Source: Thermodesulfovibrionales bacterium (GTDB lineage Bacteria > Nitrospirota > Thermodesulfovibrionia > Thermodesulfovibrionales > SM23-35). From it: 64,000 nucleotides of DNA. Where the stretch lies: NCBI GenBank assembly GCA_963715195.1, contig CAVQRT010000002.1:192001-256000 (forward strand), given 5' to 3'. A program made the position numbers. Positions 38,901 through 44,900 of the stretch are shown here, piece after piece; the first letter of the stretch is position 1, and the number at the start of each line of letters is the position of its first letter.

Positions 38901-41900
38901 TGAGAGAAATGACTTAATGGATTCCGTTGCCTGGGGGGTATCCTGAATATTTGCATACAGTTCTACCCTGTTGCAGGTAGAGATAATCATTGCCTCCTCT
39001 ATCCCCGGCAGTTCTCTGAACCGTATCAGGCCTTCTTCGAGTTTATCTCCCTGGAACGCGAGCTTTTCCCTCACCTCAACATCGGCAATCTTGTGATTCA
39101 GGCCTACGACGAAAACTTTCATAGAAAAACGTGAAGCCCTTTCCTGAGTAATTTCACCCCGAAGAAAGCAATGATAATCGTGAGGAAGCCGATTATGGAC
39201 AACACCGCCGCCCTTCTCCCCCGCCACCCTGCTACCAGCCGCGCATGCAGGATGATGGCATAAATGAACCATGTGATCAGCGACCAGGTTTCCCGGGGGT
39301 CCCAGTTCCAGTAGCTTCCCCATGCGGACTCCGCCCAGAGCGCACCGGTAATAATCGCCAGGGTGAGCAGCGGAAAGCCGAAGGTGATCAGTCTGTAGTT
39401 GATTTCATCGAGAGTCTGCAGGCTCGGCAATCTCCCGAAGAGACTGCCCAGGTGCTTGGTTTTTACATAACGTTCCTGGACAAGATACATGAAACCGATC
39501 CCGAAGGCAAGGGCAAAAGCAGCATTGCCGAGAAAGGCAAACACCGTGTGAATGCCAAGCCAGTAACTCTGTAGCGTCGGGCTCAAAGGTTTTATTTCCC
39601 GCGGGAGCATGGATGATGAGAGCATGAGTATAAAAACAAGCGGCATGATAAAAGAGGAGAGAAGGCTGATTTTATAGCGATACTGAAGGACAAAAAATAT
39701 GAGTACAATGCACCAGGCAAAAAAAGACGTTGCTTCATGCGGATTCGTTATAGGGATGTGTCCTGCGGTAATGTACCGGTAGATAATGCTTATGGTGTGC
39801 AGGGAGAAGCCGGCGATTGCAGATAACAGGGCAATTTTTGCCGTTGTTTTTGACTCCTTAAACAGTTCGGTAATACCGATGAGCGCAGCAGCAAAATAGC
39901 AGGTGAGGGCGAGTTCAAATAGGAGTACCCCCATTAGAAACAGCCAAGCTCGCAGGCGGTAATTTTTACCCGAAGCTCATCGGCAGCTATGCCGACTTCC
40001 TTGTATGGGACAGAGAGGTCCAGTGCAATTTTTCTTGCGACAGCACAGGGCAGCCTGTTGTTTATAGCCTTTTTCTGTATTTCTTCCTTTATCTTATCTT
40101 CCATCGCAAGAAACGGGGTCCACAGGTCCGAGGATTTCGGGGATCAAAAAGATTTTTTTGATTTCTGAGCACGTAAGTCCTTGAATCCTTTGGCCCGAAC
40201 CCTCTTTTTATTAAAAATATTACATCATGCTTCTTTAAAAACTCAATGAAGCTGATTTTGAGGTCCTGATGCATGTATGCTTGATCCGTAACAATAAATT
40301 CAGTTATATAATAACACTATTAATGCTATTATATAACCGCGTTATAATGAAGTCTTTCCCCTTGTTATCATGATGAAATTTCTCGATAATTTAGGCAGTC
40401 TTGGTCTGTACTACATTAATCAGATCGGGAGGATGGGGATATTTCTGGTTCTGGTCTGTATCAATATCGTCAAACCTCCGTACTATAAGATTTCGTACAT
40501 CACCAAACAGATTTACCACATTGGATCTCTGTCAATATTCGTTATCGTTTTCACCGGTGTCTTCGCCGGTATGGTACTCGGACTCCAGGGATATAATACC
40601 CTCCGCAAATTCGGCTCCGAAGGTTTTCTGGGATCGGCCGTTGCCCTGAGCCTCATCAGGGAACTGGGTCCCGTTCTGACCGCCCTGATGGTGACAGGCA
40701 GGGCAGGGTCCGCCATCTGTGCCGAGATTGGAATCATGCGCAATTCAGAACAGATCGATGCACTCGAATGCATGGCAATCGATCCTCACAATTACATCAT
40801 GGCACCAAAATTCATTGCTGCCGTTATTTCAATGCCCCTGCTTACCGCCATATTTGATGTAGTTGGCATCTTCGGCGGTTATTTGATAGGGGTAGTCCTC
40901 CTTGGAGCCAATGAAGGCGCTTATTTTCACAGCATGTACAAGAATGTGGAATATAATGACATTTCCATGGGCTTTATGAAATCCCTCTGTTTCGGCCTGC
41001 TTGTCGTCTGGATCTGCTCTGCGAAAGGGTATTTTGTCCATCTCGAAAGAAAGGGTGGGTTCGGTGCAGAAGGTGTCAGCAGGGCAACGACCAACGCTGT
41101 CGTTATGTCGTCAGTTGCAGTGCTTGTATTCGATTATTTCATAACGTCGGTTCTCATCTGAACATGGAACCTATCATAGAGTTAATAAATGTGCGGAAAC
41201 AAGTTTGGCAGACAGGAAGTCCTGAAAGGGGTTAATCTCTCGATCTACGAGGGCAAAACAACCGTCATCGTTGGTGAGAGCGGGAAAGGGAAAAGCCTCG
41301 TTCTGAAACACATCCTCGGACTCATTAAACCCGATAGCGGCAAGGTTCTCGTATTCGGAAAGGACATGAACAAGATAGGGAGTAAAGAATTGAAGGATAT
41401 CCGGTCTCATTTCGGGGTACTTTTTCAAAATGCCGCTCTTTTTGACTCCATGACTGTATTCGACAATGTCGCATTGCCTTTGCGGGAGCGAACAAAGTTT
41501 TCGGAGGGGGAGATACAAAAAATTGTTGATGAAAAACTGCATTTGATGGATATCGAGGGAAGCAACGAGAAATACCCTGCCCAACTCAGCGGAGGTATGA
41601 GAAAGCGTGTTGGTCTTGCACGGGCCCTCGTTTTGAATCCCAAAATTGTTTTTTTCGACGAACCGACGACCGGACTCGATGTGGCAAAAAGCAATGAAAT
41701 ATACCGCGTTTTCCATCGGACACAGACTAAATTGGCATATACTGCCGTTATCGTCAGTCATGATGTTCCGAAAATTTTCAAACTTGCCGATTATGTAGCA
41801 TTGATCCATGAAGGCATTATTCAGGACTGTCTGACACCGGAAGATTTCCAGACTTCAGAAAATCCTGTAATCAGGGATTTCGTTACAGAGACTATGGGAC

Positions 41901-44900
41901 TCATCTATGAAAGTGAACAGGTGGAGGGTTGAACAATGAACAGACTAAATATTGAAACAGCGGTCGGCATCTTCATTATCATCGGCCTCGCATGCATGGC
42001 CTATCTTGCGGTCAAACTGGGAGATGTAAATCTCTTCGGTACTGAACAGTACGTGGTCAAGGCTCGTTTCACAAATATTGCAGGGCTCAAGGAGGGTTCA
42101 ACCGTTGAGATTGCAGGCGTTCAGGTCGGCAAAGTCTCCAAAATTTATCTCGATAATTATCAGGCGTTTGTTGACCTTATGATTAATCCCGGGATAAAAA
42201 TTCAGGAAGATGCCATCGCGAGCATCAGAACACAGGGCATTATTGGCGACAAGTATGTGAAGATCTCCCCGGGCGGTGCGGAAGAATACATCCAGCCGAA
42301 CGGCCTGCTGACCGAAACGGAATCAACGGTTGATATCGAAGAATTAGTCAGTAAATATATTTTCGAAAAGAAAGAAGAAAAATAGGATAATGATAGTTAG
42401 AAAACTATTAAACCGTTTTCCTAATCTACCAGAAACTCAATGACTGATAACTCAACACATGGCAACCTCTGCAAATTCAGGGACGAGATACCGTTCTCTT
42501 TTCTGAATGAAGAGGACTTCGGGCAAATCGCTTGTTTTTTTGAATCGGTCACGTATCCTGCTAACACAATGATCTTCAAGGAAGGTGACCCCTCCGGTTT
42601 TATCGGGTTTGTTCTTTCCGGAAAACTGGAGGTCAAAAAACAGACCGAATTCAAAGGAAATCAACTGATCATAGCTATTCTGACAAAAGGGTCTCTCATC
42701 GGGGAGCTTTCGATCTTTGATGAGAATCAACGCTCAGCAACCGTTGAAGCCGTCGAAGATGCCTCGGTTCTGATACTGAGGAATGATGCATTTGAAGCGC
42801 TCCTGAAAGAATATCCGGAAATAGGGATTAAACTATTGAAAGGGTTTATCCGCATTCTGGCACTTCGTTTGCGCAAGACAACGGAAAGGCTTACGACAAT
42901 TTTCTGATCACAAGAGAAAAGTCAGTCCTCAACTTTCTTTTTCCGGTACTGGAGATACGCATCACGGATTGAAACATAAGGGTCGATGGCTGATTTCTTG
43001 AGGTCCTCGTAGTCCCCAATCCGGAAAGAGGTTTCATTTACCTTATCATAAACCGTTATACCCACTGAGGCCTCAGTCGGATTCACGTAGTGAACGGGGT
43101 CCAAAAAACGGTCTCCGATCCGTCCGACTGTATCACGAAGGGATGAGGGGCCGAGGAACGGCCATACCAGGTAAAAACCATGCCCAATTCCGTAGCTGCC
43201 GAGTGTCTGGCCGAGATCTTCGTCCTGTTGCTTGATGCCGAGATCTTCCTTCGCTGCATCAACAAGCCCGCACACACCCGCTGTTGAGTTATAGACGAAA
43301 CGGAGCAGCTCATTTCCAGCATCTTTAATCTTGAACTGCAGGAGACTGCTCACGAAGCGTATAGGGGTTGTGATGTTGTTAAAAAAATTACTGACTGATA
43401 TTCTCGCATCCTCAGGAACAACAATCGAATACCCCTGGGCTAAAGGCTTCATAAGCCAGAAGTAGAGCTTATCATTCACATGATACATTGCCTTGTTCCA
43501 CGGATACAGGGGATCCGCAATCTGCAAGGCCTCTTCCTCCGCCTCTTCTTCGAAGATGTCGCCAGTATCATCAGCCGGGGGGTCGGCCGGCGGTTCTATT
43601 TCCGTCTCATCCATGGCATCTCTATCAGAAGACTTACTGATGTCATCATTCTGAACTGACGGTATACCTTCGGTTGTTGAGGCTATATCAGCAGATACCG
43701 GAAGAGGACTGAGCAGAAAAAAAATGAAGATCAGGGATAAAGGAATCATCGGTTTCATGATATTTTATGCCTTTCCGGCTTTCTTTCTCAGGGTATCAAG
43801 CAATCCTTCGGGTGATTTATTTCCGAGAATCTGTGAAAACTGGGTGCGATAATTACTGATCAGACTCACACCCTCAATAATAACATCATAGACCCTCCAT
43901 TCGTCTCCCTTCCGGATCATCCGGTAGGAAATCGGGATATCCGCTTTCTTCGTCAAGATCGTAGTCTGAACTTCCGTGGTTTTTTCTGAAAGCGGATTTT
44001 CCCTGTTAAAGAGAATCTTCTCATTGGTATACGACATTATCCTGTCAATATAAGCCCCTTCCAGAATTGATTTGTAGAGTTCGATGAATTCCTTCTGCTG
44101 TTCCGTCCCGAATCTTTTCCAATTCTGCCCCAAGGTCCTCCTCGAAAGCTCGGTGTAGTCGAACATCCTGTCTGAGATGGTCCGAATTTTGTCTTTCTTG
44201 ATCTTTGTCGCTGATTCTCCCTTGAGGGATGAGTCGCGCAATACATCAAGTACTCTGTCAACGTGCCCTTTAACCGTTTCAAGCGGGGTTCCGGCATAAG
44301 CTGCAATAGGGACATGCACCAATACAATGACGAGAACCAGCATACATAATCGTTGTTTCATATTCACCTCCTAAAAATCCACCTGTTATTCGATATTCTT
44401 GCGGAAGTTTTTCACAAGTGCTGAAAGATACTGAATAAGTTCTTCGCTTTTATTCCTCTCAAAAAGAATAGCATGTCGTGGTGTTTCGGGTGGTTTCAGT
44501 GATCCGAATATAACAATGTCGGCCACCTGAAGTATCTTTTCTGCACTCTTTTTGGTTTTTTCTTCAGAACCCGAAACAAAAATGACGACATCCGGCTGTA
44601 TGATCTCTATCGGACTATTGCCTTCGATGATAATACCTTCCAGATGAGCTAACATTCCAACTGCCACCGGCAGAATTTCCCTCAACTCTGAGTAAGGTGA
44701 CTTGACCCAGATTACACCGCCGGCACCGGCATCGAGAAACTTCTTTGTGTCTTTTCCTTCTTCAGAGATAACCGCCAAATCATCCACAATTGAAGCATAC
44801 AGGGATGTCTTTGTATATTTTATCGCTCCCCATTCATGAAATGATTTCAGAATAAGGGTTGCGACAGAGGTTTTACCGGCACCGCTGTGACTGCCGCCAA

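What a model noticed while it worked through the whole genome (the two positions that open the first line are those of the whole stretch)
40370..44361. Stand-alone cyclic-nucleotide-binding protein as a fixed member of Mla lipid-transport operons lacking MlaB
Both Mla operons of the genome (C2 mlaE-mlaF-mlaD; C28:8299-11574 mlaE-F-D-C) end in a 155-aa single-domain cNMP-binding protein and contain no mlaB. The link holds in Nitrospirota, Desulfuromonadales and a planctomycete bin, suggesting a cyclic-nucleotide-sensing partner of the Mla transporter in place of the STAS subunit.
Evidence so far: The two copies are 61% identical with an intact GEL...RSATV cassette. 29 of the 35 best related loci (38 found) have mla genes within 3 kb, most directly upstream on the same strand. 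No free STAS_2 protein in this genome; the only weak hit is inside a long MlaE. Table: MlaD-cNMP pair in 1055 genomes. Search 156: 0 papers.
(Added by a program. Inside this text positions count along the whole contig: contig position 192,001 is position 1 of the stretch shown here. "Call 12" and the like, gene names such as g00115 and contig names such as C1 are that model's own, and its searches are not shown. The text may have been shortened before it was handed on; [...] marks where a part breaks off. The agent that wrote the report below was given it as the finding of a first reader that could run no searches.)

Follow-up and report, generated by a model that had tools for sequence, protein, structure and literature searches.

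The report
CRP-like partner of Mla lipid transporters
In sediment and groundwater bacteria, one branch of the Mla membrane-lipid transporter almost always carries a small protein that looks like the cAMP-sensing half of CRP and is predicted to clamp onto the transporter's ATPase, which would be an undescribed accessory subunit and possibly a way for a small-molecule signal to control lipid traffic.

Summary
The window holds mlaE-F-D plus a 155-aa CRP-type nucleotide-binding protein without a DNA-binding domain, facing mlaC-mlaA. 55 of 69 related loci lie within 3 kb of mla genes, in seven gene orders. The partner MlaF forms one clade with its own C-terminal tail (TMGxIYxS). In 251 Desulfuromonadia genomes, 68 of 68 with this tail also have the protein (70 have it). 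A 2:2 MlaF complex is predicted (score 0.64, best control 0.35; mark reached by 116 of 157 solved and 2 of 215 mismatched pairs), with the interface on that tail. 'In place of MlaB' is not supported: other Mla operons of these genomes lack both (0 of 18), MlaB absence is common in print, and the model avoids MlaB's main site. The genome has five mlaE operons, not two. Cyclic-nucleotide sensing is open: the pocket is intact here, but its arginine is lost in 10 of 40 further linked copies, and five near-complete genomes have no class I or III cyclase. Verdict: new Mla variant with a probable cytoplasmic accessory subunit.

The parts
40370..41161 (+). mlaE permease, 263 aa, no fused STAS
   Evidence: PF02405 E 2e-78; TIGR00056 over cut-off
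41164..41932 (+). mlaF ABC ATPase; one extra base at 41200 shifts the first codons out of frame in this assembly (open frame 41189-41932)
   Evidence: PF00005; three-frame view; base absent in contigs of 4 of 4 public runs
41894..41929 (+). clade-specific MlaF C-terminal tail (MGxIYxS), predicted docking strand for the cNMP protein
   Evidence: motif in 48 of 49 linked MlaF, a close variant in the 49th; interface residues 246-257
41936..42385 (+). mlaD, short single-MCE type, 149 aa
   Evidence: TIGR04430 over cut-off
42440..42907 (+). stand-alone CRP-type cyclic-nucleotide-binding protein, 155 aa, ends at the CRP hinge, no HTH
   Evidence: PF00027 only; model pLDDT 89.7; best folds GlxR, CRP, Mfla_1926; alignment with E. 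coli CRP
42629..42694 (+). EVKKQTEFKG hairpin and following strand (residues 64-85), family signature and predicted MlaF-binding surface
   Evidence: E64 K66 K67 T69 E70 F71 G84 invariant in 50 of 50 rows (the rows were found with this motif); interface
42701..42736 (+). phosphate-binding cassette G88 E89 ... R98 S99
   Evidence: aligns with CRP G71 E72 R82 S83
42922..43758 (-). mlaA lipoprotein, convergent, 14 nt from the cNMP stop
   Evidence: PF04333 E 3e-71
43765..44367 (-). mlaC periplasmic shuttle
   Evidence: PF05494 E 3e-47

Best explanation
The 155-aa protein is a dedicated cytoplasmic accessory subunit of one clade of Mla (MlaEFD-C-A) phospholipid transporters. It dimerises through its CRP-type C-helix (inferred from the fold), and each half grips the short C-terminal tail and the underside of an MlaF ATPase through its TEF hairpin, the next strand and the end of the C-helix (predicted). 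The dimer thus clamps the two ATPases together, the job that E. coli MlaF does with its own longer C-terminal 'handshake' (inferred by analogy). Where the pocket is intact, as here, cAMP or a related nucleotide may shift the C-helix and hairpin as in CRP and so tune assembly or ATPase activity (inferred, about 40%); in lineages with a degenerate pocket it is probably a ligand-free clamp or binds something else. Shown: gene linkage, co-occurrence, fold, pocket residues. Predicted: the complex. Not shown: binding, ligand, effect on transport.
For: Linkage: 55 of 69 loci within 3 kb of mla genes, 53 on the same strand within 400 nt, in seven gene orders. Converse: of 80 metagenome loci picked by the MlaF tail alone, 60 show the gene, and 35 of the 36 with at least 2 kb downstream. 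Genomes: the same 11 of 41 relatives carry the close cNMP protein and the close MlaD; 68 of 68 tail-bearing Desulfuromonadia genomes have the protein, 59 at 2.0-2.6 kb, 181 of 251 have neither; 30 of 35 tail-bearing genomes of a 351-genome phylum sample have it in the operon. Three operons lack the adjacent gene yet the genome keeps it elsewhere. Linked MlaF are one clade, SH-aLRT 98, on a tree without the tail. Complex: 0.64 (runs 0.64, 0.69, 0.62) against best control 0.35; the mark was reached by 116 of 157 solved and 2 of 215 mismatched pairs; contacts agree at least 90%, partner pLDDT at least 84. 7 of 27 clade-specific MlaF residues fall among 24 interface residues of 257 (p 0.006). Tail and hairpin change together in one divergent group. 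Forced dimerisation rescues E. coli MlaF lacking its tail (PMC7367683 section 8).
Against: No experiment. The calibration counts hold only roughly (own alignments, 2:2 job), one control reached 0.35, MlaE and ligand were not in the model, and the interface enrichment uses the alignments that fed the model. 39 of 100 Desulfuromonadia copies and 14 of 69 loci are not beside the operon; their neighbours vary (GGDEF, SpoIIE, kinases, P-type ATPase). One tail-bearing operon (G740) has no copy found, and L211, L245 and L246 show none downstream. No MlaF-cNMP fusion found (weak search). For the ligand step: pocket Arg lost in 3 of 50 and 10 of 40 linked copies, unrelated to cyclase presence; class III cyclase found in only 36 of 50 and 26 of 42 genomes; none of class I or III in five near-complete genomes. 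Kin are not independent, and some searched genomes supplied the profiles.
Confidence: 0.65

Rival explanations
1. Passenger or co-regulated signalling protein: the gene travels with the operon on a transferred module but does not touch the transporter.
For: Usually the last gene of the operon; the module is patchy across phyla, which suggests transfer as a block; stand-alone cNMP proteins are common in these genomes (16 domains in this one; another subfamily unlinked in 14 of 15 loci).
Against: It survives at least seven gene orders, upstream placement included; it is kept elsewhere in the genome when it leaves the operon; the predicted interface sits on clade-specific MlaF residues.
Confidence: 0.14
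2. General nucleotide-sensing hub with several targets, MlaF being one, or binding mainly to MlaE or another protein.
For: Extra copies sit beside diguanylate cyclases, SpoIIE phosphatases, kinases and a P-type ATPase and keep the hairpin and terminal Phe; MlaE was not modelled.
Against: Unlinked copies are nested inside the Mla-linked family and occur almost only in genomes with the tail-type MlaF (68 of 70); no recurring second partner stood out among the neighbours scanned.
Confidence: 0.14
3. Literal MlaB substitute: it occupies MlaB's site on the helical subdomain and stabilises MlaF as MlaB does.
For: No STAS gene in 0 of 227 loci scanned, with E. coli MlaB detected as control; E. coli's MlaF tail also touches MlaB (PMC7367683 section 9), and the tail is what the model has the protein bind.
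Against: Next-tier Mla operons lack both genes (18 of 18); MlaEFD without MlaB is the widespread state (PMC10665443); 40 of 50 genomes with the link have a STAS_2 protein over cut-off elsewhere, and 14 of 30 fetched lie beside other mla operons; no predicted contact in MlaF 35-181.
Confidence: 0.07

Closest known systems
E. coli MlaFEDB with MlaB (STAS) and the MlaF C-terminal handshake (PMC7367683)
   Same: MlaE, F, short D, C and A; a small cytoplasmic partner of MlaF; the MlaF C-terminal extension is the key element
   Different: Partner is a CRP-type fold, not STAS; predicted site is the tail and underside, not the helical subdomain; the tail is shorter with another sequence, and its residue-level alignment to E. 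coli 247-269 is ambiguous
CRP/FNR family, N-terminal domain (E. coli CRP, GlxR, Mtb CRP)
   Same: Fold (TM 0.75-0.79 to GlxR and Mtb CRP); G71, E72, R82, S83, R123, T127, S128 equivalents present in the window copy
   Different: Stops at the hinge; no helix-turn-helix, so it cannot be a transcription factor although databases often name it CRP/FNR regulator
Mfla_1926 (PDB 3GYD), stand-alone cNMP domain from structural genomics
   Same: Single domain, TM 0.80-0.86, 24-28% identity
   Different: Lacks the TEF hairpin in the alignment shown; its gene context was not checked
HetC and cyanobacterial cNMP-associated ABC exporters (PMC10986499; TIGR03896)
   Same: A cNMP domain tied to an ABC transporter and, in HetC, needed for function
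   Different: Fused domain on a peptide exporter; HetC's domain bound ppGpp, not cAMP (passages); TIGR03896 has two domains and is far below cut-off
Ligand-regulated ABC ATPases: OpuA/OpuC CBS with c-di-AMP, MetN C2, MalK with EIIA-Glc (recalled, no call); mycobacterial Mce1N (PMC10517005, abstract)
   Same: Control of an ABC or MCE transporter by an extra domain or protein
   Different: Other folds; none is a free CRP-type dimer on an Mla ATPase

Membership tests
Mla system (E. coli type MlaFEDCB-A) | MlaE permease, MlaF ATPase, single-MCE MlaD | tested here: met
   closest solved ATPases include MceG and MlaF
Mla system (E. coli type MlaFEDCB-A) | MlaC and MlaA present | tested here: met
   PF05494 and PF04333, convergent pair
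Mla system (E. coli type MlaFEDCB-A) | STAS subunit MlaB in the operon | tested here: not met
   0 of 227 loci; the local profile missed the MlaE-fused STAS of C34, so very divergent STAS could escape
Mla system (E. coli type MlaFEDCB-A) | Retrograde phospholipid transport | not testable with these tools
   inferred from family membership only
MlaB/STAS | STAS fold | tested here: not met
   PF00027 only; CRP-type model and fold hits
MlaB/STAS | Binds the MlaF helical subdomain | tested here: not met
   by prediction only: contacts at 182-257 and one at 34
CRP/FNR transcription factors | cNMP beta-barrel with long C-helix | tested here: met
   helix 126-154
CRP/FNR transcription factors | C-terminal HTH DNA-binding domain | tested here: not met
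   155 aa, ends at CRP residue about 135-136; NF008732 53.9 bits against cut-off 266
cAMP-binding CNB domains | Phosphate-binding cassette Gly-Glu...Arg-Ser/Thr/Ala | tested here: met
   window and C28 copies intact; G88 and E89 50 of 50, R98 47 of 50; Arg lost in 10 of 40 more distant linked copies
cAMP-binding CNB domains | Measured cAMP or cGMP binding | not testable with these tools
   HetC shows that such a domain may prefer another nucleotide
cAMP-binding CNB domains | A cyclase in the same genome | tested here: inconclusive
   five PF00211 matches at four places in this genome; 36 of 50 and 26 of 42 others; none of class I or III in five near-complete genomes

The most novel reading that the evidence does not exclude
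A free CRP-type dimer is a ligand-gated clamp on the MlaF ATPase dimer, so that cAMP (or another nucleotide signal) directly switches intermembrane phospholipid transport on or off. With the neighbouring MlaF lineage that carries a fused degenerate GGDEF domain at the same C-terminal position, the MlaF C-terminus would be a recurring plug-in point for second-messenger control of Mla transporters.
Probability: 0.35. Interest if true: 0.88.

Novelty: new variant of a known kind. Interest (0 to 1): 0.7.

Why it matters
How MCE/Mla lipid transporters are regulated after translation is an open question; MlaB was proposed as the regulator, but no signal is known (PMC7367683, passages). A small soluble partner with a nucleotide pocket and a predicted, residue-level interface makes the question testable with two easy proteins. 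It would also show a CRP sensor domain working without its DNA-binding half, as a direct effector of a membrane machine, and it would correct many database entries that call these proteins transcription regulators.

Tried and rejected
Fusion of the cNMP domain to MlaF: not found among 8000 longer candidates (3 hits, none with an ABC domain; weak search). A cyclase in the operon: CYTH genes lie directly behind the cNMP gene in G346 and G354 and 2.5 kb away in G332, 3 of the 51 CYTH-positive genomes; the two read are short and look like the triphosphatase type (recalled), so rejected as a cAMP source. Pocket loss tracking cyclase loss: suggested by 3 of 3 rows, not upheld (Arg lost: 8 with cyclase, 2 without; kept: 16 with, 14 without). 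MlaF-cNMP distance correlation 0.69 is expected from kinship and is not counted as co-evolution. C28 as a contaminant: composition is typical, but the bin is 6.6% contaminated and the 10 relatives have one copy each, so a close strain cannot be excluded. Promoter scan: 6 sites against 8.1 expected, uninformative. ESM Atlas: generic cNMP clusters only. Earlier scan notes: nothing in three look-ups. Literature: no paper linking Mla and a cNMP protein in ten searches; the library lacks most subscription journals.
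Full report
What is in the window. On the + strand lie mlaE (40370-41161), mlaF (41164-41932), a short mlaD (41936-42385) and, 54 nt later, a 155-aa protein whose only Pfam domain is PF00027 (42440-42907). mlaC (44367-43765) and mlaA (43758-42922) run towards it on the - strand. The assembled mlaF has one extra base at 41200; contigs of 4 of 4 public runs laid on the stretch lack it, so it is private to this strain or assembly. A second operon on C28 reads E-F-D-C-cNMP, with a 60.6% identical protein. The genome (97.8% complete, 6.6% contaminated) has no free STAS protein.

The protein. The model (pLDDT 89.7) is a CRP-type barrel with a 29-residue C-helix; the best folds are GlxR, mycobacterial CRP and the stand-alone Mfla_1926. 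Against E. coli CRP, G88 E89 R98 S99 R143 T147 T148 match G71 E72 R82 S83 R123 T127 S128, and the chain stops at the hinge, with no DNA-binding domain (the roles of these CRP residues in cAMP binding are recalled). The family signature is an EVKKQTEFKG hairpin and an RLxxIF end.

The link, from the protein's side. In 41 related genomes, 12 of 12 hits at 62% identity or more lie beside mla genes; 0 of 8 at 38-41% and 0 of 4 weaker ones do within 1.5 kb. A GTDB scan with the hairpin pattern gave 69 loci: 55 have mla genes within 3 kb, 53 on the same strand within 400 nt; of the 14 others, one has them about 5 kb away and three have under 1.5 kb of upstream DNA. Orders seen: E-F-D-N, E-F-D-C-N, E-F-D-A-C-N, E-F-D-TolC-like-C-N, E-F-D-C-N-A, N-E-F-D-A-C and N-E-F-D-C-N. 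Hosts are Nitrospirota, Desulfuromonadales, Desulfobulbus, other deltaproteobacterial bins, Gallionella, Thiogranum, Thiohalobacterales and a planctomycete bin. Within Nitrospirota it is patchy: 11 of 251 genomes.

The link, from the transporter's side. The linked MlaF end in a tail TMGxIYxS (48 of 49, a variant in the last) where next-tier MlaF mostly have FITGSxEGPI, and they form one clade (50 rows, SH-aLRT 98) on a tree built from positions 5-176 only. Picking 80 metagenome loci by the tail alone, 60 show the cNMP gene, and 35 of the 36 with 2 kb or more downstream; most misses are contig ends, but L211, L245 and L246 show none downstream. In 251 Desulfuromonadia genomes, 68 have the tail (E below 1e-25; the next hit is 1.7e-11) and 70 the protein; all 68 have both, 59 at 2.0-2.6 kb, and 181 have neither. 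Of the 9 unlinked, I fetched 7: three whole operons lack the adjacent gene while the genome keeps it elsewhere, four end at a contig edge. In 351 genomes of the phylum, 35 have the tail: 30 with the gene in the operon, one elsewhere, one with none found, three cut off. Kin are not independent and some of these genomes supplied the profiles, so I give counts, not tests. Another stand-alone cNMP subfamily of the same phylum is not linked (14 of 15 fetched loci).

MlaB. A STAS profile built from 30 hits in these genomes finds E. coli MlaB but nothing in 227 loci (69 + 18 + 80 + 60); it missed the MlaE-fused STAS of C34, so it is not exhaustive. Yet absence of MlaB is not tied to the cNMP gene: 18 of the 19 next-tier short-MlaD loci were fetched, and none has either gene (one ends just behind mlaD). 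40 of 50 linked genomes have a STAS_2 protein over cut-off elsewhere, and 14 of 30 fetched lie beside other mla operons. Grasekamp et al. report MlaABC as sparse and MlaEFD as the ancestral core (PMC10665443, passages found by term; its Supplementary Dataset 1, not read, may show the state in these phyla).

Predicted complex. Because the window's mlaF is frameshifted I folded the C28 pair, 2:2, each with a 50-row alignment in matching order, without MlaE or ligand. Score 0.64 (0.64, 0.69, 0.62), controls 0.35, 0.02, 0.00; the mark was reached by 116 of 157 solved complexes and 2 of 215 mismatched pairs, counts that hold only roughly for this job; contacts agree at least 90% between runs, partner pLDDT at least 84. 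The model supports binding and does not show it. No ABC-cNMP complex appears among the titles listed, so a pass from memory seems unlikely, but the entries were not opened. The interface joins MlaF 182, 186, 204-211, 227-232 and 246-257 to partner 64-85 and 139-155. Seven of 27 residues that are at least 90% conserved in linked MlaF and at most 20% in the next tier fall among 24 interface residues of 257 (p 0.006; residue 34, seen in one copy only, left out); on the partner, 10 of 27 conserved residues among 33 of 155 (p 0.04). These share their alignments with the model. In one divergent group the tail reads VMGSAHSS and the hairpin KKTPGWGK, both changed together. MlaB binds mainly the helical subdomain, with a second contact from the neighbour's C-terminal extension (PMC7367683, section 9 read); the model has no contact in MlaF 35-181. 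In E. coli, loss of the extension (247-269) releases MlaF from the complex and GCN4 dimerisation largely rescues it (section 8 read). A CRP-type dimer holding both tails would be a natural version of that rescue; this is my inference.

Is it a sensor? For this copy, plausibly: the pocket is intact and the genome has class III cyclase domains at four places. For the family, doubtful: G88 and E89 are kept in 50 of 50 and R98 in 47 of 50, but the T127/S128 positions vary; among 40 further linked copies the Arg is lost in 10, mostly to His, regardless of cyclase content; class III cyclases were found in 36 of 50 and 26 of 42 genomes, and five genomes held nearly on one contig have none of class I or III, though four have a CYTH protein. 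HetC's cNMP domain bound ppGpp rather than cAMP (PMC10986499, passages). This genome's two unlinked paralogues have lost part of the cassette and nest inside the linked family.

Novelty. Ten full-text searches found no paper joining Mla to a cNMP protein (listings only, except the four papers named; PMC10517005 abstract and outline). NCBIfam has no model over cut-off for it. Verdict: a real, apparently undescribed Mla variant with a probable cytoplasmic accessory subunit on MlaF (0.65); direct nucleotide control is the attractive but unproven step (0.35); replacement of MlaB at its site is unlikely (0.07). Interest 0.7.

Noticed in passing
L127:1814-3052 (-), L130:928-2235, L131:4588-5832, L137:4632-5861 (-): MlaF fused to a C-terminal degenerate GGDEF domain (410-436 aa; PF00990 E 2.6e-9 to 1.5e-3) in E-F-D-C-A operons, 4 of 18 control loci; weakly placed as sister of the cNMP-linked MlaF (support 84). 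A search for 'MlaF' with 'GGDEF' listed 7 papers, none on this by title.
   Followed up: partly
window 41200: One extra base frameshifts the start of mlaF; absent from contigs of 4 of 4 public runs, so an assembly error or a private lesion, with an intact mlaF on C28.
   Followed up: yes
G000 C7:338026-338520 and C35:7152-7595; L107, L110, L113, L114, L121: Paralogues with a short deletion in the phosphate-binding cassette; in this genome both precede a P-type ATPase and follow a conserved 127-aa protein with no Pfam match.
   Followed up: partly
L146, L150, L158-L160, L163-L166, L169, L170: Nitrospirota genomes carry a free STAS gene directly before a different mlaE-mlaF operon (35-40% to the window's MlaE), an MlaB-like arrangement outside Proteobacteria.
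   Followed up: no
L079, L082, L257: Operons flanked by two family members, one upstream (same strand or divergent) and one downstream; the upstream copies group in their own branch.
   Followed up: partly
L073-L075, L077; L124-L126, L128, L129, L136: A TolC-like outer-membrane efflux gene (PF02321 in the one scanned) lies between mlaD and mlaC in linked and unlinked operons alike.
   Followed up: no
L328:3862-4350, G354:C104:6950-7372, L329:3354-3848: Short CYTH gene directly behind the cNMP gene in two genomes and 2.5 kb away in a third; polyphosphate kinase follows the cNMP gene in L257.
   Followed up: partly
L090, L103, L106: Gallionella, Thiogranum and Thiohalobacterales bins carry the cNMP-type operon, and their genomes also hold a canonical mla operon with a STAS gene (L141, L142, L145), which suggests transfer of the module into Proteobacteria.
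   Followed up: partly
window 40301-40339: An AT-rich 18-pair inverted repeat just upstream of mlaE; possible regulator site or terminator.
   Followed up: no
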